DNA from: Candidatus Saccharimonadota bacterium
GTDB taxonomy: Bacteria > Patescibacteriota > Saccharimonadia > Saccharimonadales > SZUA-47
Direction: 5' to 3'
Assembly (NCBI GenBank): GCA_016700315.1
Contig: CP065013.1
Location: forward strand, 321,449 to 385,448
Length of the DNA stretch: 64,000 bases
The translations under genes and the position numbers were made by a program. The number at the start of each line of letters is the position of its first letter. The first letter of the stretch is position 1. The notes under the pieces are model-generated. The model saw only the letters and a program-made list of their open reading frames with translations. It ran no database searches and was not told the DNA's origin. This document shows, piece by piece, positions 9,904-46,676 of the stretch.

Positions 9904-9985
9904 TCAGGGTCTGGACCCAACGAATTTTTTTGATTGATATTCAGTCAGATATTCAGGGTCAGACCCTGACATCTGTTATTTTTTG
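9904..9985 (+). repeat. REP-like palindromic element doublet (one degenerate and one canonical copy)
   Basis: The canonical copy is cagggtcagaccctgacatctgttattttttg at 9954-9985. The degenerate copy is cagggtctggacccaacgaattttttt at 9904-9930. Same family as 27414, 45867 and 46609. Confidence 0.7.
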
Positions 9986-10004
9986 CAATATAGAATTTGA
10001 GGCA

Positions 10005-10376
10005 TTAATTACTTTTCCAGTCGATGATTGCTTGAGCTTGTTTCTTGCTTATACCGACTATCAGACGGTTGTACTTAGTAAGGCTAGTTTCAATAACCAA
10101 GACTTTCTCTAGGCGCGGCTTAATAAAACCATGCGGCTTCTTAGCATAGATAAAATCCCAACCTTGTTCTGTCCAATATGAGCCAGCCATCAACAGCCTA
10201 GGCGCATAAGTACCAGGCATACGCACTTCCCATTTACGCCAATCCGAAAATTCCTCAACAAATTCGACAGTTTTGATGGATTTTTTCGGAACAACTACCT
10301 TGGCCTTTAACGCAGCGATTTGCTCACGCCCTTCAAGCACCAATGTTAGTACTTGATTTGTTGTATTAAAATACAT
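10005..10376 (-). CDS. hypothetical protein (123 aa)
   Basis: ORF immediately downstream of msrB on the same strand. No motif assigned. Confidence 0.5.
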   Translation of the reverse strand: MYFNTTNQVLTLVLEGREQIAALKAKVVVPKKSIKTVEFVEEFSDWRKWEVRMPGTYAPRLLMAGSYWTEQGWDFIYAKKPHGFIKPRLEKVLVIETSLTKYNRLIVGISKKQAQAIIDWKSN

Positions 10377-27377: not shown

Positions 27378-27413
27378 TCCGCTGCCCACAAAACAGCCCA
27401 TTTTTACATATAA

Positions 27414-27449
27414 CAAAAAATAACAGATGTCAGGGTCAGACCCTGTTAT
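27414..27449 (-). repeat. REP-like palindromic element (inverted orientation)
   Basis: caaaaaataacagatgtcagggtcagaccctgttat is the reverse complement of the element at 45867. Confidence 0.75.
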
Positions 27450-27522
27450 GTAATATTTTAATATATTGTAAAAGTACCATATTGCGGGCGCTTTTATTCT
27501 TGTGTGGATTTGTCTTTTAGGG

Positions 27523-34302: not shown

Positions 34303-34507
34303 TGACTCAATTATATCCCGCAGGTCAGGTATTTAGGAAAATATTCAATAACGATCAGTTCATAAATTTTACTAAAACCGAAGGGCCAGCCAAGATCTAT
34401 CATCCCGTAAGCTACCTCCATACATTAAACACCCCAATCAATCAACCCGACTTCAGTTCATAATTCACAACATAACTCACACTATTTAACACCTCTAAAA
34501 CTCCAAA

Positions 34508-34564
34508 TTCACATTTCCCTCCTCTGTATAAGGACGGACCTTATACAGAGGAGTTGGGCGTGAA
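34508..34564. repeat. long palindromic element, copy A
   Basis: ttcacatttccctcctctgtataagg-acgga-ccttatacagaggagttgggcgtgaa. The perfect core is ctcctctgtataagg/ccttatacagaggag. The flanks (about 34440-34640) are also similar to copy B in inverted orientation. Confidence 0.8.
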
Positions 34565-34703
34565 TTGGGCGGTTTGCTCAAGATTTAGAGTGTTGTGGAG
34601 GTCTGAGTTATGGTTAGATCGCTATATGGCTTTGCCCAACAGGTCTAAGGAGCACCGGCTAGCCTTGGTTCTTACCTCTTATCTCTGCTACCATGTAACA
34701 GAT

Positions 34704-35810
34704 ATGATCGTTTTAGGGATTGAAACCAGTTGCGATGAAACTTCGGTCGGGATTGTCGAGCTTAACGATACAAGCAAAGGGGCGACACTCTATGCCAACG
34801 CCGTGCTTTCAAGCATGGACTTACACACAAAATACGGTGGAGTTGTACCCGAAATAGCTGCCCGTGAACATATCAAAGCTATGCCTATCGTTATCGAAAA
34901 AGCTTTTGAGCAAGCTGGCATGAGTTGGGAAGATATAGATGCTATAGCCGTAACTAACGGCGCCGGGCTTGGCGGATCGTTGCTTGTCGGTGTAATGACT
35001 GCACGAACCCTAGCCATTACCCAGAACAAACCACTATATGCCTGCAACCACGTCGAAGGTCATGTGTACGCTAACTTTTTAACAAGCCAACAGTCAACAG
35101 AAGACAGTCGACAGAAAACTCAACTTAGCAACTACCAGCTACCATCTACCACACCCCAGTTCCCTATCCTTGCACTGATTGTCAGCGGAAATCATACTCA
35201 ACTAGTCCTCTTTAAAGATCACTTTGATTATAGGTTACTCGGCCAAACTCACGATGATGCTATAGGTGAGGCTTTTGATAAATGCGCCAAAATAACTGGT
35301 CTCCCCTACCCTGGTGGCCCGTCGATTGCCGCCAAAGCCAAAGAGGGCGATACTCAAGCCTTCGATCTGCCAAAAGCGAAAATGCCAGGTAAGTACGACT
35401 TCAGCTTCTCTGGCGTAAAAACCGCTACTCTAAGACAGGCTCAGGCCATGTGTGGTGAGGATTTCACCTTTCCGTCTAAGAACCTGCCAGAACGCCTCTC
35501 AGAGCCTCAGAAGGCCAACATTGCTGCCGTGTTCCAACGTGTCGCGATCGAAACCGTGGTCGACAAGACAGCTTTGGCTTACGAAGAGTTCGGTCCCGCT
35601 TCTGTGATCATCGCAGGTGGTGTCGCCGCCAGCACGGAGCTACGCCGCCAACTATCTGAACGTCTGCCGATGGACATAAACTATGCCGATATCAAGCTAT
35701 GCACGGACAATGGAACTATGATTGCCTGCCTTGGGGCATACAAAGCTCTATTAGGCCAACCCAAAGCCGAGCCATACTCTCTAGAAATCAATCCCAACCT
35801 ATCTATGTAA
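34704..35810 (+). CDS. tsaD: tRNA N6-adenosine threonylcarbamoyltransferase TsaD
   Basis: MIVLGIETSCDETSVGIV..., HVEGHV, and GGVAAS. The start is set at ATG 34704 because the track's 50-aa N-terminal extension reads through the palindromic repeat. The stop TAA (35808-35810) overlaps the MITE terminus. Confidence 0.9.
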   Translation: MIVLGIETSCDETSVGIVELNDTSKGATLYANAVLSSMDLHTKYGGVVPEIAAREHIKAMPIVIEKAFEQAGMSWEDIDAIAVTNGAGLGGSLLVGVMTARTLAITQNKPLYACNHVEGHVYANFLTSQQSTEDSRQKTQLSNYQLPSTTPQFPILALIVSGNHTQLVLFKDHFDYRLLGQTHDDAIGEAFDKCAKITGLPYPGGPSIAAKAKEGDTQAFDLPKAKMPGKYDFSFSGVKTATLRQAQAMCGEDFTFPSKNLPERLSEPQKANIAAVFQRVAIETVVDKTALAYEEFGPASVIIAGGVAASTELRRQLSERLPMDINYADIKLCTDNGTMIACLGAYKALLGQPKAEPYSLEINPNLSM

Positions 35811-36102
35811 CCCCAGCTCGACATAAGGCAACCCAAGTAAACAGGAATTACACGTTTGCACCTTTTTGGCGAAAATCTCCGTTCCGTGCTCACCGTACGT
35901 TAAGTACGGCTCGGCTTGCGGTACTCTATTTTCATCCGAAAATGCACTAAACACGTAATTCCTGGTAAATATACATTTGTATCTGTAAATCTAATCACTA
36001 CGGCGTATTTTACGTAACAACAGCTACGTAAGATACGACAGAAAGCAATCTTTACTAGCTAAAATGTATATTTATAGGTGTCGTTATGTCGAGCTGGGGT
36101 TA
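35808..36102. mobile_element. MITE-like element copy 1 (291-bp core between TA dinucleotides)
   Basis: Terminal inverted repeats ACCCCAGCTCGACATAA (35810-35826) and TTATGTCGAGCTGGGGT (36084-36100), with TA on both sides and no ORF. It is homologous to 44152-44320 in opposite orientation. Confidence 0.65.
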
Positions 36103-36568
36103 CGTAGTAAATATAGCAACGTTATGGTCTCTGTATTTGATAGTATTGACGAACTATGATATGCTTATGCTTGTAAAACAAAAATGGTTGTACTGACTGC
36201 AAGCCAATGCGGTTCGCACTTTTGAGACAAAATACAACTTAGACAGGAGCTAACAGATGACTTTCACGTGAAAGTTTATGTTGGTTTTTGTCTTTTTTTG
36301 GTATTTTTACCGTTTTATGGTCACCTTTCATTACCGTAGCCTTCATGTGGTCGTGTGAATACGCTCCCCTCGACCTTCCTGTTCAATGTTCTATGTCATG
36401 GCTGACAAATATTGCCTGCCGGCCTCTCTTGCAACTAAAGTATGCTGGTTTTATATTCAACTCTAAGAAGCTGGGGTTCTCCTCATGACAGGCGTCTCAT
36501 GACTCTTGTCTCGCTTGCTTCTTGCTTATGCTTTATACTTACCACTTTCTACTTTATACTTATTTCAT

Positions 36569-39112
36569 ATGGAGTTACCGAAGGCTTACACACCTTCTGA
36601 CTACGAGTCAGACATTTATGCGCTCTGGGAGAAGAGTGGTGTTTTTGAGCCCACCGAAAAAGGTGAACCATACTGTATGGTTATGCCGCCACCGAATGCG
36701 AATGCTGGCTTACACATTGGCCACTCGCTATTTTTTGCCATCGAAGATGTAATAATCCGCTACCAAAGAGCTCGAGGCAAGTCAGTTTTGTGGCTGCCAG
36801 GAGCCGATCATGCTGGTTTTGAAACACAGGTTGTCTACGAGAAGCACCTAGCAAAAGAGGGTAAGAGTCGTTTTGATCTTACCAGAGAAGAGCTCTACGA
36901 TCAGATATATCAATTTGTAGACGGTAATAAAGAAAGATTTTTCAATATCTTTCGCTCACTAGGTGCTAGCTGCGATTGGAGTAGGTTCACGTTTACCCTA
37001 GATGATAAGATCATAAAAACTGCCTACCAAACATTCAAAAAAATGTGGGATGACGGTTTGATTTACAGAGGTGAAAGATTAGTTAATTATTGCACCGAAC
37101 ATCGCACCGGCTTCGCCGATATTGAGGTAGAATACAAAACTGTTAAGACTCCACTTTACTACATCAAATATGGCCCTTTCACGTTGGCGACAACAAGACC
37201 AGAAACTAAGTTTGGCGACACTGGCGTAGCCGTCCATCCAAACGACGAACGTTACAAGCAGTGGGTTGGCCAGACGGTGACGGTCGAAGGAGTAAACGGG
37301 CCGTTCGAGGTCAGAGTAGTCGCCGATGATTTCGTCGATCCTAACTTCGGTACGGGGGTCGTCAAGATTACACCTGCGCACAGCTTTGACGACTGGGACG
37401 CTGCCCAGCGCCACAACTTGCCACCAGTTCGCGTAATCAACCACGACGGCAAAATGAACCACCACGCCGGCCCGTACGAGGGCATGACGGTTTTAGAAGC
37501 TCGTCAGGCAGTTGCCAAAAAACTAGATGAGATGGGGCTGATTGAGAAAGTTGAAAAAGATTACGAAACCAGGATTGGCCTCTGTTATAAGTGCGGCACG
37601 GTGATAGAGCCAATGCTACTGGACCAGTGGTTCGTTAACATGCGAAAGCTCGCAGAACCAGCAATCGAGGCACTGCAAAAAAACAAGATCAAGTTTTACC
37701 CAAACGCCAAACAGGATCAAACGATTTTGTACTTACAGAACGTCAAAGACTGGAATATCAGTCGGCAGATTGCTTGGGGGATACCAATTCCGGCTTTTCA
37801 GAATATAGACGACCAGGACGATTGGATATTTGACGACAGAGTAGAGCAACACACAATAGAAATTGATGGTAAGGTTTACCGGCGCGATCCCGACGTTTTC
37901 GACACTTGGTTTTCAAGCAGCCAGTGGCCATTTGCAACTCTTGGCTTCCCCGATTCTGATGACTTCAAGAAGTTCTACCCAAATGCGATTATGGAGACAG
38001 GGCAGGACATTCTCTACCAATGGGTGGCACGAATGATCTGTCTGGGGTTATACATCACAGGTGAGATTCCTTTTAAAGACGTTTACCTCCATGGCATGGT
38101 TAGGGCCGAGGATGGGCGTAAAATGAGTAAAAGCCTAGGAAATGTCGTCGATCCAAATAAGTACTTAGCAGAATACGGCTCCGATGCTCTTCGTATGGGT
38201 ATGCTTGCAGGCAGAAGCGCGGGCTACAGTGCTGCTTTTGCTCCGGCAAAAATCACTGCTGGTCGGAACTTCTGTAACAAGCTGTGGAACATAGCCAGAT
38301 TCATTCAAGTCAAAATAGGCGATAACGAAGTCTCTATATCTGCCAAGCCGGAAACTATAGTAGATCATTGGGTGTTGAGTAAACTACAACAATCATATAT
38401 CGAGGTAGGGAAGTTGCTCGATGACTACCGCTTCAGTGAGGCTTATGACCTTGTCTACCATTTAGCCTGGGACAGTGTTGCTGACTGGTATATTGAGGCC
38501 AGCAAGGGGCAGGGAAGTGCCGACATGATGGCTACCGTGCTTCACCACATTTTGATATTAGTGCACCCGTTTGCGCCTTTCGTTAGTGAAACAATCTGGC
38601 AAACCTTAGCTTGGGAAAAGGGTGTTTTAGCCGGTCAGACCTGGGAGAAGTTAGGTAATGCCAACTCCGATGAGGCTGCTAACTTCAATATGATTATTAA
38701 GCTCGTAACAGAGATAAGAGCAATTTCATCGGATCTGAAAATTAAGTCTTTCACGATGTATTACTCCGACGGGGAACTGATCGAAGAAAACGCACCACTG
38801 ATTAAACGGCTAGCCAACCTCACAGATATAAAGAAGGTAGACGATGGCGCTGGTCTATTCTTGAGCTCAACCGAGTACCGCGTCTGGCTAGATATCGACC
38901 ACGCTACTGCCAAGGTATACACCGACACACTGAGTAGCAAAGCCATTGAGCTCAAAAAGTCTATTGCCAACTTGCAGGGCAGACTGGCCAACAAAGCCTA
39001 TCTCGAGCTAGCGCCACGCGAACTGGTCGAACAGACCGAACAGGAGCTAAAAGCCGCTCAGACGCGTCTAGAAACGCTCACGGCCGACCTTGAACGCTTC
39101 GAGAAACTATAA
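36569..39112 (+). CDS. valS: valine--tRNA ligase
   Basis: PPPNANAGLHIGH (HIGH), KMSKSLGN, and a C-terminal coiled coil. The start is set at MELPKAYTPSDYE (36569). Confidence 0.95.
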   Translation: MELPKAYTPSDYESDIYALWEKSGVFEPTEKGEPYCMVMPPPNANAGLHIGHSLFFAIEDVIIRYQRARGKSVLWLPGADHAGFETQVVYEKHLAKEGKSRFDLTREELYDQIYQFVDGNKERFFNIFRSLGASCDWSRFTFTLDDKIIKTAYQTFKKMWDDGLIYRGERLVNYCTEHRTGFADIEVEYKTVKTPLYYIKYGPFTLATTRPETKFGDTGVAVHPNDERYKQWVGQTVTVEGVNGPFEVRVVADDFVDPNFGTGVVKITPAHSFDDWDAAQRHNLPPVRVINHDGKMNHHAGPYEGMTVLEARQAVAKKLDEMGLIEKVEKDYETRIGLCYKCGTVIEPMLLDQWFVNMRKLAEPAIEALQKNKIKFYPNAKQDQTILYLQNVKDWNISRQIAWGIPIPAFQNIDDQDDWIFDDRVEQHTIEIDGKVYRRDPDVFDTWFSSSQWPFATLGFPDSDDFKKFYPNAIMETGQDILYQWVARMICLGLYITGEIPFKDVYLHGMVRAEDGRKMSKSLGNVVDPNKYLAEYGSDALRMGMLAGRSAGYSAAFAPAKITAGRNFCNKLWNIARFIQVKIGDNEVSISAKPETIVDHWVLSKLQQSYIEVGKLLDDYRFSEAYDLVYHLAWDSVADWYIEASKGQGSADMMATVLHHILILVHPFAPFVSETIWQTLAWEKGVLAGQTWEKLGNANSDEAANFNMIIKLVTEIRAISSDLKIKSFTMYYSDGELIEENAPLIKRLANLTDIKKVDDGAGLFLSSTEYRVWLDIDHATAKVYTDTLSSKAIELKKSIANLQGRLANKAYLELAPRELVEQTEQELKAAQTRLETLTADLERFEKL

Positions 39113-39155: not shown

Positions 39156-39212
39156 TTCACATTTCTCTCCTCTGTATAAGGTCCGTCCTTATACAGAGGA
39201 GAGAAATGTGAA
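39156..39212. repeat. long palindromic element, copy B (perfect 26-bp stem)
   Basis: ttcacatttctctcctctgtataagg-tccgt-ccttatacagaggagagaaatgtgaa. The loop is the reverse complement of the copy A loop, so the two copies are inverted. Confidence 0.85.
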
Positions 39213-39364
39213 TTTGATGATTTACAGGTGTTAGTTTTTTGGATTTAGTTGTGATTTTTTTGCGAATTTTTATGAGTAAGCATCGACTCGCTGTAGCGCC
39301 CCAGTGCTGATGGCGAGAAGCAGCCCACTGAGCTTGCTATATTTTACAGGCTTAACATTAAGCT

Positions 39365-40973: not shown

Positions 40974-41218
40974 GCGGAGGAGTACCCAAGTGGCTGCTGC
41001 GTGAAACGTAAATTTGTAGACGGTTTGCCGTCCCCTTCAGTTTACGGACACACAGGAGCTACGTGAATAACGTAAGCTTTCAATGCGGAGGAGTACCCAA
41101 GTGGCTGCTGCGTGAAACGTAAATTTGTAGACGGTTTGCCGTCCCCTTCAGTTTACGGACACACAGGAGCTACGTGAATAACGTAAGCTTTCAATGCGGA
41201 GGAGTACCCAAGTGGCTG
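40974..41218 (+). repeat. 111-bp tandem repeat (2.2 copies) whose unit begins with the 5' part of tRNA-Ser(GCT)
   Basis: Units start at 40974, 41085 and 41196, each with gcggaggagtacccaagtggctg. Units 1 and 2 continue with an 88-nt non-tRNA segment, and unit 3 continues into the complete tRNA. Confidence 0.9.
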
Positions 41219-41290
41219 AAGGGGACGGTTTGCTAAATCGTTAGGGGGGCGCAAGTTCCCGCGAGAGTTCGAATCTCTCCTCCTCCGCCA
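41198..41290 (+). tRNA. tRNA-Ser (anticodon GCT), class II, CCA encoded
   Basis: Hand-folded. Acceptor GGAGGAG/CTCCTCC, anticodon stem acggt/atcgt with loop ttGCTaa, long variable arm, T-arm gagag-ttcgaat-ctctc, and G73-CCA. Confidence 0.85.
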
Positions 41291-42491: not shown

Positions 42492-42581
42492 GGAGAGGTG
42501 TCCGAGTGGTTTAAGGAAACGGTCTTGAAAACCGTCGTGCCGGCAACGGTACCGAGAGTTCGAATCTCTCCCTCTCCGCCA
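42492..42581 (+). tRNA. tRNA-Ser (anticodon TGA), class II, CCA encoded
   Basis: ggagaggtgtccgagtggtttaaggaaacggtcttgaaaaccgt... gives anticodon loop ctTGAaa, a long variable arm, and T-arm gagag-ttcgaat-ctctc. Confidence 0.9.
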
Positions 42582-42589
42582 AGGAGGGA

Positions 42590-42625
42590 AGCTCACATCT
42601 TCAGATGTGGGCTTTTCTTCTTTAT
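42590..42625 (+). terminator. rho-independent terminator after the tRNA cluster
   Basis: agctcacatc-ttca-gatgtgggct followed by tttcttctttat. Confidence 0.6.
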
Positions 42626-42712
42626 AAAGAAGAGAAATTTGAACATAAAGAGTTCGCTAATTAGTCTTATTACCGAGATATATCTCGGCTAATAGATTAA
42701 TTAGGTAGATTC

Positions 42713-42730
42713 ATCTCTCCCTCTCCGCCA
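42713..42730 (+). repeat. 18-nt direct duplicate of the tRNA-Ser(TGA) 3' end
   Basis: atctctccctctccgcca occurs at 42564-42581 (tRNA 3' end) and again at 42713-42730, a 149-bp spacing. Confidence 0.85.
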
Positions 42731-42922
42731 GCCCTGACTTTTGCATTTTTTGGATTTCTACCCGCGCCCAATTTCTTTCTGAATTAGAAAAAAGTCAGGT
42801 CTATCGGGTCGGCTGCCCAAAAGGACAGAAACGACGTTGTGTGCCTTAAGTATAAGCGCTTTGCGTTTGATTTTTATAGCATTTTATGCTAGTATTATAT
42901 ATGCAAAGTTCAAAACAAAAAT

Positions 42923-44095
42923 ATGCCAGAAAAAGCCCCGTTTAACCCCCACCAATCGTCTCATGACAGCTCTGACCTGGGTGGTGCTGTAGACCCATCA
43001 ATTTTGAGCGGTAACGCCCCTTTGCAGATACGCTTCAACACTTTCGCAGAAGCTAGAACGACCCCAAGACCTTTCTCTGACGAGTTTATTGACACTTTTA
43101 CCGATACTCCTACAGCGATTAACGGTATCAAGAGTTATCTTGACGACGTAAAGCCAACCTACAGAGATAAAGAGGTCATAGGCGACTCAGACCGCATCGC
43201 CGAGCTGTATATTAAAACAACGGAAATGATAGCCCGTAATTTGCGCGTAAAGGTAGACCAGGGTAAAGCTGGTGTAACCGCAGAGCAAATCCAAAGAGAT
43301 GGCGAGGCGACACTCCAAAGACTATGGGGATACAGAGTTAATGTACCAGAGGGGCTGAAACGCCATCATATTAGCGCAACAAACCCGCAGGCAACAAATA
43401 AAGACAAGTTTTTAGATGACGAAACAATATCAGGATTAGAGTATAGGGGTTTCGATTTTAATCGCCCGGGCGTACGCGCCAACTTCCATATTCAGCGTCA
43501 AAACTTTACAACATTTATTATGGCCTATTCCGACGGTCGCGTGCAGGAAAAAATGGCCGGCACGAGCACGATTTTAGACAAAAGAATATACCTAAATCCC
43601 GATATGGAAGCTACGCCAAGACTGTTTGAGCAATTGCTTCAGGCAGCCAACCAAGCAGGTATACCTATACAACTAAAGATGGTTCAACGAGCAACGGAGG
43701 CACTAAACGCACACCTTAAAGCCGCTAAAGGCGATGAAGTAGGGTTGCGCGGCGATGGAATTGTGGTATATACAGACGGCGAACACGCTGATGATACTTT
43801 AGCTATGGTGCTTGCTTTGGCACAGGACAACTCAGACGCTTTTAGGGGCCGTCCTCATAGTCGCACGCCTCAGAATGTTGCCGAAGGTATTGGTATAGCT
43901 GACGAACCAATTCAAGAGCCTGGTATTTCACTAACTTCTCATAGAACAGAGGTGTTGAAGAGTGTTGCCGGACAAGTTGCAGCGTCAGGGAAAAAGGGCG
44001 ACGAAGCGCATGCTATGTTCCGCCATTTATGGCAAAACACGGCGGTAGCCAACGGTATTGACCCCAACAATCTTGCCTTTAACATAGCTACATAA
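42923..44095 (+). CDS. hypothetical protein (390 aa), orphan on a repeat-bounded islet
   Basis: Long ORF. The pattern KRIYLNPDMEATPRLFEQLL...IQLKMV...GDGIVVYTD only weakly reminds me of HopA1/lyase-like families and is not verifiable here. Confidence 0.55.
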   Translation: MPEKAPFNPHQSSHDSSDLGGAVDPSILSGNAPLQIRFNTFAEARTTPRPFSDEFIDTFTDTPTAINGIKSYLDDVKPTYRDKEVIGDSDRIAELYIKTTEMIARNLRVKVDQGKAGVTAEQIQRDGEATLQRLWGYRVNVPEGLKRHHISATNPQATNKDKFLDDETISGLEYRGFDFNRPGVRANFHIQRQNFTTFIMAYSDGRVQEKMAGTSTILDKRIYLNPDMEATPRLFEQLLQAANQAGIPIQLKMVQRATEALNAHLKAAKGDEVGLRGDGIVVYTDGEHADDTLAMVLALAQDNSDAFRGRPHSRTPQNVAEGIGIADEPIQEPGISLTSHRTEVLKSVAGQVAASGKKGDEAHAMFRHLWQNTAVANGIDPNNLAFNIAT

Positions 44096-44151
44096 TAATA
44101 ACCGACAGTTCTTTATATAGAAGGGTGTTTTGCACAATTGAGTTCGCTGAC

Positions 44152-44320
44152 TAACCCCAGCTCGACATAAGCAACACCTGTTAATGGTTGTTTTAAGTAG
44201 TAAAGATTGCTTTATCTTATGTTTTTCGTAGCTGTCTGTTACCAAAAATATTAGACAAAGATAATATTCACAGTAATAAACAGGCATCAATCTGGGTTGT
44301 CTTATGTCGAGCCGGGGTTA
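44152..44320. mobile_element. MITE-like element copy 2 (165-bp core between TA dinucleotides)
   Basis: TA-ACCCCAGCTCGACATAAG...CTTATGTCGAGCCGGGGT-TA. Internal blocks (tagtaaagattgcttt, cgtagctgt.tgttac) match the reverse complement of copy 1. It interrupts a ~70-bp sequence that has an uninterrupted paralogue at 42617-42688. Confidence 0.65.
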
Positions 44321-44380
44321 ACTAGTCTTATTACCAAGATTTATCTCTCTGTCTCAAGGCAAGATGCTAATTTTATGGAT

Positions 44381-45816: not shown

Positions 45817-45866
45817 GACACATCATTACCTACATACCGTTTTTTACAATATTACTATAATACTTA

Positions 45867-45902
45867 ATAACAGGGTCAGACCCTGACATCTGTTATTTTT
45901 TG
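45867..45902 (+). repeat. REP-like palindromic element flanking the Y1 transposase gene (left)
   Basis: ataacagggtcagaccctgacatctgttattttttg, with inverted repeats CAGGGTC/GACCCTG and ATAACAG/CTGTTAT. Confidence 0.8.
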
Positions 45903-45934
45903 TTATATACAAAGTATAGTATATTTAAGTAGGA

Positions 45935-46558: not shown

Positions 46559-46608
46559 CCCTTAGACTAACCATAAATTTCTCGCGCAATGCCACAAAAC
46601 CTATATTG

Positions 46609-46644
46609 CAAAAAATAACAGATGTCAGGGTCTGACCCTGTTAT
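46609..46644 (-). repeat. REP-like palindromic element flanking the Y1 transposase gene (right, inverted)
   Basis: caaaaaataacagatgtcagggtctgaccctgttat is the reverse complement of the left copy with one central change. Confidence 0.8.
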
Positions 46645-46676
46645 TAAAGAACTTACTGGATTGTCAAATTTGGAGG

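What the first reader, a model, noticed from the sequence alone, without database searches (positions are those of the whole stretch)
35808..36102. MITE family with TA-flanked terminal inverted repeats; copy 1 supplies the tsaD stop codon
Two non-coding elements, at 35808-36102 and 44152-44320, share these features:
- 17-19-bp terminal inverted repeats (ACCCCAGCTCGACATAA / TTATGTCGAGCTGGGGT);
- homologous internal blocks in opposite orientation;
- a TA dinucleotide on each side, as expected for a TA target-site duplication of IS630/Tc1-mariner-type elements.

Copy 2 interrupts a sequence that has an uninterrupted paralogue at 42617-42688. That paralogue acts as an approximate empty site.

In copy 1 the left TA plus the first element base forms the TAA stop of tsaD. 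Removing the element and one TA would extend the reading frame by about 35 codons, so the insertion appears to have redefined the C-terminus of an essential gene. A solo fragment agctggggtt occurs at about 36471-36480.
Basis: partly seen in the sequence, partly recalled or inferred. Interest (0 to 1): 0.55.

Follow-up and report, generated by a model that had tools for sequence, protein, structure and literature searches.

The report
IS982-derived MITEs, one at tsaD stop
Two small non-coding "hitch-hiker" transposons in a Saccharibacteria-like genome are real, but they belong to the IS982 family rather than IS630/mariner, and the copy sitting on the tsaD stop codon swapped TAG for TAA without changing the protein.

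Summary
Two non-coding elements, 35810-36100 and 44154-44318, carry the terminal inverted repeat (TIR) ACCCCAGCTCGACATAA and are flanked by TA.

- **Family.** The same TIR bounds 1010-1024-bp elements in Saccharibacteria MAGs that encode an IS982-family transposase. They are not IS630/Tc1-mariner elements.
- **Target-site duplication (TSD).** The flanking TA is the inner end of a 6-8-bp TSD of the form TA-N(2-4)-TA. Copy 1 has TATGTA/TACGTA and copy 2 has TGACTA/TAACTA.
- **Empty site.** An orthologous empty site (L133) reads ...TATGTA|GTAAAT..., which fixes the TSD at 6 bp.
- **tsaD stop.** The ancestral tsaD ended ...ATG TAG. The insertion made it ...ATG TA|A. In 59 of the 60 closest TsaD homologues the protein ends at the same Met (...PNLSM). 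The C-terminus was therefore not redefined.

Extra findings:
- One related lineage lost the stop (TAA>AAA) and reads 10 codons into the MITE.
- The extra 123 nt in copy 1 is a nested copy of a second MITE family (TIR CAGGAATTAC, 5-bp TSD), also found at unrelated metagenomic sites.

Verdict: a new member of a known kind, of modest interest.

The parts
34554..35810 (+). tsaD, given as the longest ORF. The true start is probably about 50 codons downstream. The stop TAA is at 35808-35810.
   Evidence: TIGR03723 359.8 bits and PF00814. The profile match starts at residue 53. Most homologues are 353-358 aa.
35804..35809 (.). Left copy of the 6-bp target-site duplication of copy 1 (TATGTA). Its last two bases are the first two bases of the tsaD stop codon.
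   Evidence: The empty site in L133 reads TATGTA once, followed by GTAAAT.
35810..36100 (+). MITE copy 1 (291 nt): a 163-nt IS982-type MITE plus a 123-nt nested element plus that element's 5-bp duplication. TIRs at 35810-35826 and 36084-36100.
   Evidence: Present in L065 and L064, absent in L066, L133 and L132.
35842..35964 (+). Nested copy of a second MITE family (123 nt). TIR CAGGAATTAC/GTAATTCCTG. 5-bp TSD GTAAA at 35837-35841 and 35965-35969.
   Evidence: Full-length copies of 92-93% identity lie at unrelated sites: L096, L100 and L124, with TSDs TATTA, GCAGA/GCGGA and CTTAA. It folds as a hairpin with z = -5.65.
36101..36106 (.). Right copy of the TSD of copy 1 (TACGTA). It differs from the left copy by one transition.
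44148..44153 (.). Left TSD copy of MITE copy 2 (TGACTA).
44154..44318 (-). MITE copy 2 (165 nt). It lies between a HopA1-like ORF and a phosphoribosyltransferase gene. TIRs at 44154-44170 and 44302-44318.
   Evidence: Present in all nine near-identical strain contigs L067-L075.
44319..44324 (.). Right TSD copy of MITE copy 2 (TAACTA).
42617..42688 (+). Uninterrupted paralogue of the copy-2 target region. The target hexamer here is TAATTA, at 42658-42663.
   Evidence: The alignment is gap-free at the junction only if 6 bp are removed with the element. The TA model needs a 4-nt gap.

Best explanation
Both elements are non-autonomous derivatives (MITEs) of an IS982-family insertion sequence that circulates in Saccharibacteria/Saccharimonadales.

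Mechanism. An IS982-type DDE transposase supplied in trans recognises the 17-18-bp terminal inverted repeats (5'-ACCCCAGCTCGACATAAG). It inserts the element at TA-N(2-4)-TA targets with a staggered cut. Repair of that cut gives a 6-8-bp target-site duplication that starts and ends with TA. The recognition and staggered-cut steps are inferred from family knowledge.

Copy 1. It landed on TATGTA, which overlaps the last codon and stop of tsaD (...ATG TAG). The retained left duplicate ends in TA and the element always begins with A, so a stop (TAA) was regenerated at the same codon. TsaD was left unchanged.

Nested element. A second, unrelated 123-nt MITE (5-bp TSD) later inserted inside copy 1.

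Age. Both window copies look old and probably immobile. Each TSD carries one mismatch, the two copies are 73% identical to each other, and both are fixed in related strains.

Shown: TIRs, TSDs, the empty site, the IS982 partner, the unchanged C-terminus and the nested family.
For: - Distribution: the TIR scan of 185,579 species genomes gave 63 loci. 27 of them come from 11 Saccharibacteria/Saccharimonadales MAGs, and many lie at contig ends.
- Autonomous partner: L011:2925-3948 and L039:4169-5178 are about 1.0-kb elements bounded by the same TIR. Each has one ORF that hits NF033520 (IS982 transposase) at 227/242 bits and PF13612. Further full-length copies are 1010-1012 bp, and NCBI names the protein 'IS982 family transposase [Candidatus Saccharimonadales bacterium]'.
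- TSDs: 7 of 13 complete elements have perfect 6-8-bp direct repeats. Four more have 5-6 bp with one mismatch, and these include both window copies. Autonomous copies show TATATA and ACTATA.
- Target motif: 41 of 43 ends abut TA. 36 of those 41 have a second TA 6-8 nt further out, against an 18.8% background (p = 2e-21).
- Empty sites: L133 reads ...TATC TATGTA GTAAATAAAGC..., against the window's ...TATC TATGTA[MITE]TACGTA GTAAATATAGC.... L066 reads ...ATGTAG.
- C-terminus: 59 of the 60 closest TsaD homologues end at the same Met.
- Published IS982 features match: about 1 kb, 5'-AC ends, direct repeats of 2-10 bp (PMC7335449).
Against: - No transposase gene lies in the 64-kb window (tblastn). 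Whether this genome still has an autonomous partner is unknown.
- MITE and IS share only the roughly 18-bp ends, with no internal homology. Derivation from the IS, as opposed to chance acquisition of its ends, is inferred.
- The TIR matches the published IS982 IR consensus AC(N)6T(N)5TT at AC and T9, but has TA rather than TT at positions 15-16.
- Sequence alone cannot tell whether the TA next to the ends comes from the target (6-8-bp TSD) or belongs to the element (2-4-bp TSD with TA-flanked targets). Both models predict the same empty site, and both exclude a TA-only duplication.
Confidence: 0.9

Rival explanations
1. One reading: an IS630/Tc1-mariner-type MITE with a TA target-site duplication, whose insertion truncated or redefined the TsaD C-terminus.
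For: TA abuts all four ends in the window and 41 of 43 ends overall.
Against: - The duplications extend 4-6 nt beyond the TA: 7 perfect 6-8-bp TSDs.
- The true empty site L133 contains TATGTA once.
- The TA model needs a 4-nt gap against the paralogue.
- The TIR-matched autonomous elements encode IS982-type transposases, not IS630-type.
- TsaD orthologues end at the same Met without the element.
Confidence: 0.02
2. The segments are conserved structured RNAs or palindromic regulatory elements (REP- or terminator-like), not transposons.
For: Both fold as near full-length hairpins: RNA z = -8.6 for copy 2 and -10.1 for copy 1. Copy 1 sits directly after a stop codon.
Against: - Absent from the orthologous tsaD-valS spacer in L066, L133 and L132.
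- Flanked by TSDs.
- Found in many unrelated contexts, with differing interiors and only the TIR conserved.
- The same ends bound a transposase gene.
- No Rfam match.
Confidence: 0.02
3. Add-on reading, not exclusive of the best explanation: after insertion, copy 1 was co-opted. For example, it may act as a transcript-end hairpin or insulator between tsaD and the conserved valS leader, or as a source of a new C-terminal tail.
For: - A very stable hairpin (-111 kcal/mol) lies immediately 3' of tsaD.
- The element is retained in strains with 93-100% TsaD identity.
- In the P0004 lineage the stop became AAA, and 10 MITE-encoded codons (KPQLNISQPK) are added.
Against: - The right TIR and the interior are decaying in L065: 2 TIR mismatches and 86% interior identity. 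That argues against selection on the sequence.
- There is no U-tract after the hairpin, and no terminator was called there.
- No expression data are available.
Confidence: 0.12

Closest known systems
IS982-family insertion sequences (review PMC7335449)
   Same: The autonomous partners are 1010-1024 bp. They have one roughly 296-aa transposase ORF (NF033520, PF13612), ends beginning 5'-AC, a 17-18-bp IR and direct repeats within the published 2-10-bp range.
   Different: - The window elements have lost the transposase.
- The host phylum (Saccharibacteria) is not among the groups listed in that review's Table 1.
- That review does not mention a TA-N(2-4)-TA target pattern. I searched it for 'preference', 'specificity', 'rich' and 'consensus'.
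IS982(ISCca4)-derived MITE of the Cardinium endosymbiont cOegib (PMC9769881)
   Same: A short (about 240 bp) transposase-less repeat. It is flanked by inverted repeats matching an IS982-family element and is presumed to be mobilised in trans.
   Different: The host and sequence are different. The Cardinium MITE keeps short internal homology to its parent, whereas the window MITEs share only the roughly 18-bp ends with the IS.
QMITE2 at the 3' end of enhC in Coxiella burnetii (PMC5896051)
   Same: A MITE lies at the 3' end of a gene. One strain reads into the MITE and gains a C-terminal extension. Another strain stops just before it. Direct repeats are variable and 7-11 nt long. Other elements insert into the MITE.
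   Different: The family is different. Here the insertion lies exactly on the stop codon and regenerates it. The extension in the sister lineage is only 10 aa.
IS630/Tc1-mariner-derived bacterial MITEs (own knowledge: TA-specific insertion with a 2-bp TA duplication)
   Same: TA is found next to both ends.
   Different: The duplication here is 6-8 bp and the matching transposase is IS982-type. The defining features were tested and not met.

Membership tests
MITE (generic) | Short and without coding capacity | tested here: met
   The elements are 165 nt and 291 nt. Only chance ORFs overlap them. tblastn with the transposase finds nothing in the window.
MITE (generic) | Terminal inverted repeats | tested here: met
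   A 17-nt TIR, perfect in copy 1 and with 1 mismatch in copy 2. 4 hits against 0.13 expected.
MITE (generic) | Target-site duplication, with an empty site available | tested here: met
   TATGTA/TACGTA and TGACTA/TAACTA. Orthologous empty site in L133. Paralogous site.
MITE (generic) | Multiple copies at unrelated loci | tested here: met
   Two copies in the window. Nine further complete small elements (164-330 bp) lie in Saccharibacteria MAG loci. The copy number in the source genome is unknown.
MITE (generic) | Autonomous element with the same ends | tested here: met
   L011, L039, L135 and L142-L154 are 1010-1024 bp with the same TIR and a transposase ORF. None was found in the window itself.
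IS630/Tc1-mariner-derived MITE | Duplication of the TA dinucleotide only | tested here: not met
   TSDs are 6-8 bp. The empty site L133 holds one TATGTA. The TA model needs a 4-nt gap.
IS630/Tc1-mariner-derived MITE | Ends match an IS630-family transposase-bearing element | tested here: not met
   Every TIR-bounded 1-kb element encodes an IS982-type protein. No IS630 model hit was seen.
IS982 family (derivative) | Parent about 1 kb with a single IS982-type DDE transposase | tested here: met
   NF033520 at 227.5 and 242 bits (cutoff 130). PF13612 at 223 and 241 bits. Element lengths are 1010-1024 bp.
IS982 family (derivative) | IRs of 11-32 bp beginning 5'-AC, with consensus AC(N)6T(N)5TT (PMC7335449) | tested here: inconclusive
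   ACCCCAGCTCGACATAA has AC at positions 1-2 and T at position 9, but TA rather than TT at 15-16. Length and the AC start are met. The full consensus is only partly met.
IS982 family (derivative) | Direct repeats of variable length, 2-10 bp (PMC7335449) | tested here: met
   TSDs of 5-8 bp were observed, mostly 6-8.
Any described structured RNA (Rfam 15) | Covariance-model match | tested here: not met
   Only tRNAs reach gathering score in the window. Nothing credible at E<=1 in 35700-36650.

The most novel reading that the evidence does not exclude
The Saccharimonadales IS982-type transposase may obey a specific target rule. It would cut at two TA dinucleotides separated by a flexible 2-4-nt spacer, giving 6-, 7- or 8-bp duplications that always start and end with TA. 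The element starts with A and ends with T, so every insertion would write TAA at both junctions, reading inward on each strand. Insertions onto the TA of a TAA or TAG stop codon would then be protein-neutral by construction. Such a 'stop-codon-safe' mode might help these elements persist in tiny, gene-dense CPR genomes. The IS982 review I read does not describe a flexible-stagger, TA-anchored rule.
Probability: 0.45. Interest if true: 0.4.

Novelty: new member of a known kind. Interest (0 to 1): 0.3.

Why it matters
- It corrects a plausible mis-annotation. A TA next to inverted repeats does not by itself mean mariner or IS630.
- It documents IS982-derived MITEs, plus a second nested MITE family, in the reduced genomes of Saccharibacteria, where little has been described about mobile elements.
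- It gives a clean worked example of a transposon landing exactly on the stop codon of an essential gene without altering the protein.
- A sister lineage subsequently recruited 10 element-encoded codons.
- The TA-N(2-4)-TA target pattern is a testable property of a poorly studied transposase family.
- None of this changes how MITEs or IS982 elements are thought to work.

Tried and rejected
- Rfam, at gathering score on the whole window and at E<=1 on 35700-36650, gave no relevant family.
- The promoter/terminator consensus scan around copy 1 gave nothing above shuffled expectation.
- The 'solo fragment' AGCTGGGGTT at 36469-36478 is a single extra 10-mer. It is not conserved in strain L065, so I rejected it as evidence of a third copy.
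- Sensitive blastn for degenerate extra copies in the window found none.
- I looked for presence/absence polymorphism of copy 2 in near-identical strains. All nine contigs carry it, so no true empty site for copy 2 was obtained. Only the paralogue is available.
- blastn of the nested block against the window and the genome loci found nothing. The metagenome scan then found copies.
- The listing of cluster members was run to get organism names for the TsaD homologues. The names came back truncated and gave no taxonomy. The Saccharibacteria assignment of the window is therefore an inference from where the TIR and the IS occur.
- L011 and L039 lack TSDs. For L039 the reason is that its two flanks belong to two different insertion sites, through assembly chimera or IS-mediated recombination. 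L011 is unexplained.

Full report
**Observation**

The 17-mer ACCCCAGCTCGACATAA occurs four times in the window. It forms two inverted pairs: 35810-35826/36084-36100 and 44154-44170/44302-44318 (the last with one mismatch). The expectation is 0.13, and none of 100 shuffles reached four hits. TA abuts all four ends.

The two elements are homologous in opposite orientation. After removing a 123-nt insert from copy 1 (see below), copy 1 is 163 nt. It is 73% identical to the reverse complement of copy 2 (165 nt) and 65% identical to its forward strand. Each element is about 73% self-complementary and folds as one long hairpin (RNA z = -8.6 and -10.1).

The tsaD ORF (TIGR03723, 359.8 bits) ends at TAA 35808-35810. 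That codon is the flanking TA plus the first base of the element. The claimed solo fragment is one extra 10-mer at 36469-36478. It is not conserved in a 98%-identical strain, and I regard it as chance.

**Which transposon family**

A scan of one genome per species (185,579 species) for ACCCCRGCTCGACATAA returned 63 loci. Of these, 27 come from 11 Saccharibacteria/Saccharimonadales MAGs. Many sit at contig ends, as expected for a repeat that breaks assemblies. Most of the remainder are single scattered hits of the kind chance would give.

In L011 (2925-3948) and L039 (4169-5178) the same TIR pair encloses about 1.0 kb with a single ORF. These ORFs hit NCBIfam NF033520 'IS982 family transposase' at 227.5 and 242 bits (cutoff 130), and Pfam PF13612 at 223 and 241 bits.

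A protein search found thousands of relatives. Many lie on roughly 1-kb contigs, and NCBI names the protein 'IS982 family transposase [Candidatus Saccharimonadales bacterium]'. Further full-length copies are 1010-1012 bp with the same ends.

These values match the published description of IS982: mean length 996 bp, IRs of 11-32 bp beginning 5'-AC, and direct repeats of 2-10 bp (PMC7335449). The window itself holds no such transposase. The elements are therefore IS982-derived MITEs, not IS630/Tc1-mariner derivatives. IS982-derived MITEs have been reported before, in Cardinium (PMC9769881).

The small elements in other Saccharibacteria share only the TIR with the window copies. Their interiors fall into several unrelated subfamilies.

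**Target-site duplication**

- Among 13 complete elements, 7 have perfect direct repeats of 6-8 bp abutting ACCCC...GGGGT: TAACTA, TACATA, TATTCTA, TACTGTA, TAGATTA, TAGAGTTA and TAAGTATA.
- Four more have 5-6 bp with one mismatch. These include both window copies: TATGTA/TACGTA and TGACTA/TAACTA.
- Autonomous copies show TATATA and ACTATA. The apparent lack of a TSD in L039 arises because its two flanks belong to different insertion sites.
- Across 43 ends, 41 abut TA. Of those 41, 36 have a second TA starting 6-8 nt further out, against an 18.8% background (p = 2e-21).
- The paralogue at 42617-42688 aligns with the joined copy-2 flanks without a junction gap only when 6 bp are removed with the element. 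The TA model needs a 4-nt gap.

The decisive evidence is a true orthologous empty site in L133. It reads ...TTATC TATGTA GTAAATAAAGCTACGATAT.... The window reads ...CTATC TATGTA [MITE] TACGTA GTAAATATAGCAACGTTAT....

Formally, one could instead count the TA as part of the element and call the TSD 2-4 bp with TA-flanked targets. Both descriptions give the same empty site, and both exclude a TA-only duplication.

**Effect on tsaD**

- With the 6-bp TSD, the pre-insertion sequence is ...CTA TCT ATG TAG TAA. This is what the empty sites show: L133 reads ATG TAG TAA and L066 reads ATG TAG.
- Of the 60 closest TsaD homologues, 59 end at the same Met, typically ...PNLSM.
- The insertion therefore changed only the stop codon (TAG to TAA), not the protein.
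- There is a mechanistic reason why the insertion was harmless. The target ends in TA and the element always starts with A. Any insertion on the TA of a stop codon therefore regenerates TAA.
- The one exception among the homologues is P0004 (93% identical; a cluster of 9 member sequences). Its DNA (L064) carries the same MITE, but the stop has mutated from TAA to AAA. The ORF then reads 10 codons into the TIR (KPQLNISQPK) and ends at the next TAA.
- A comparable strain-specific MITE-encoded tail is known for Coxiella enhC (PMC5896051).

**Age and distribution of the window copies**

Copy 1, with its nested insert, is present in strains with 93-100% TsaD identity (L064, L065). In L065 the right TIR has two mismatches. 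It is absent in lineages at 68-75% TsaD identity (L066, L132, L133).

Copy 2 is present in all nine near-identical strain contigs examined. Two of them have perfect TIRs.

Both copies therefore look like old, vertically inherited insertions that are drifting.

**Nested element**

Copy 1 is 126 nt longer than copy 2. The extra part is 35842-35964 (123 nt), with TIR CAGGAATTAC/GTAATTCCTG. It is flanked by GTAAA on both sides, and removing it plus one GTAAA leaves 163 nt.

A metagenome scan for its ends and blastn found full-length copies of 92-93% identity at unrelated sites, with their own 5-bp duplications: L096 TATTA/TATTA, L124 CTTAA/CTTAA and L100 GCAGA/GCGGA. Two more diverged copies lie in L115 and L108. 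Homology stops exactly at the element's ends.

It is therefore a second MITE family that inserted into the first. Its autonomous parent was not identified.

**Rivals**

- A structured RNA or regulatory palindrome is excluded as the primary explanation. The evidence against it is absence at orthologous empty sites, the TSDs, the variable interiors and the transposase-bearing relatives. There is also no Rfam match.
- Secondary co-option cannot be tested here. Possible roles are a hairpin at the tsaD 3' end or an insulator before the conserved valS leader. The drift seen in L065 argues against strong constraint.

**Verdict**

This is a real MITE family, correctly spotted but misassigned. It is IS982-derived, with 6-8-bp TA-anchored duplications. 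The insertion at the tsaD stop codon is protein-neutral. I class it as a new member of a known kind, of modest interest. The flexible TA-N(2-4)-TA target rule and the nested second family are the most useful by-products.

Noticed in passing
window 35842-35964 (TSDs 35837-35841 and 35965-35969); L096:640-762, L100:404-526, L124:734-855: A second MITE family: 123 nt, TIR CAGGAATTAC, 5-bp TSD, folding as a full-length hairpin. It is nested inside MITE copy 1 and also occurs at unrelated metagenomic sites. The autonomous parent is unknown.
   Followed up: yes
L064:4114-4149 (protein P0004): In a lineage with 93% TsaD identity the stop at the MITE junction has mutated from TAA to AAA. tsaD then reads 10 codons into the MITE TIR (KPQLNISQPK*).
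   Followed up: yes
window 36137-36305; L133:1630-1770, L066:4190-4340, L132:2272-2470: A conserved non-coding block lies between tsaD and valS (GATATGCTTATGCTTG.AAAACAAAAA...). It has two hairpins that keep pairing across four lineages, and the second is followed by a T-run. It may be a valS leader or attenuator. There is no Rfam match at E<=1 and no T-box motif.
   Followed up: partly
window 34487-34575 and 39156-39233: Two copies of a roughly 60-70-nt palindrome (TTCACATTTC.CTCCTCTGTATAAGG / CCTTATACAGAGGAG...GTGAA) bracket the tsaD-valS pair. The stem at 39156-39212 is 26 nt and perfect. They could be a REP-like element, a terminator or a third small repeat family.
   Followed up: no
window 9954-10006, 27403-27473, 45853-45913, 46588-46668: Four copies of a roughly 50-65-nt repeat. 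It has the palindromic core CAGGGTC(A/T)GACCCTG followed by ACATCTGTTATTTTTTG, and occurs in both orientations in intergenic DNA.
   Followed up: no
window 40974-41290: The first 23 nt of tRNA-Ser(gct) are repeated three times at 111-nt spacing. The first two units are 100% identical 111-nt tandem copies in which 88 nt of non-tRNA sequence follow that tRNA 5' segment. Only the third unit is a complete tRNA.
   Followed up: no
window 42581-42731 and 42617-42688 vs 44110-44352: About 20 nt of the 3' end of tRNA-Ser(tga) are repeated at about 42710-42731, which looks like an att-site remnant. A roughly 70-nt block after that tRNA is duplicated downstream of the HopA1-like ORF (42923-44095). This suggests the ORF lies on a small inserted or duplicated segment.
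   Followed up: no
L039/L142, L143-L149: Full-length IS982 copies with identical transposases appear with shuffled combinations of a few left and right flanks. The cause is either assembly chimeras across IS copies or IS-mediated recombination. Only some flank pairs carry a matching TSD.
   Followed up: partly
L022, L023, L057 (MAG labelled Alphaproteobacteria, JBOFRK01): The same 17-nt TIR occurs at three loci, two of them near contig ends. In L057 it lies next to an ORF only 38% identical to the Saccharimonadales IS982 transposase. The TIR is therefore shared by a wider IS982 clade, or the MAG is contaminated.
   Followed up: no
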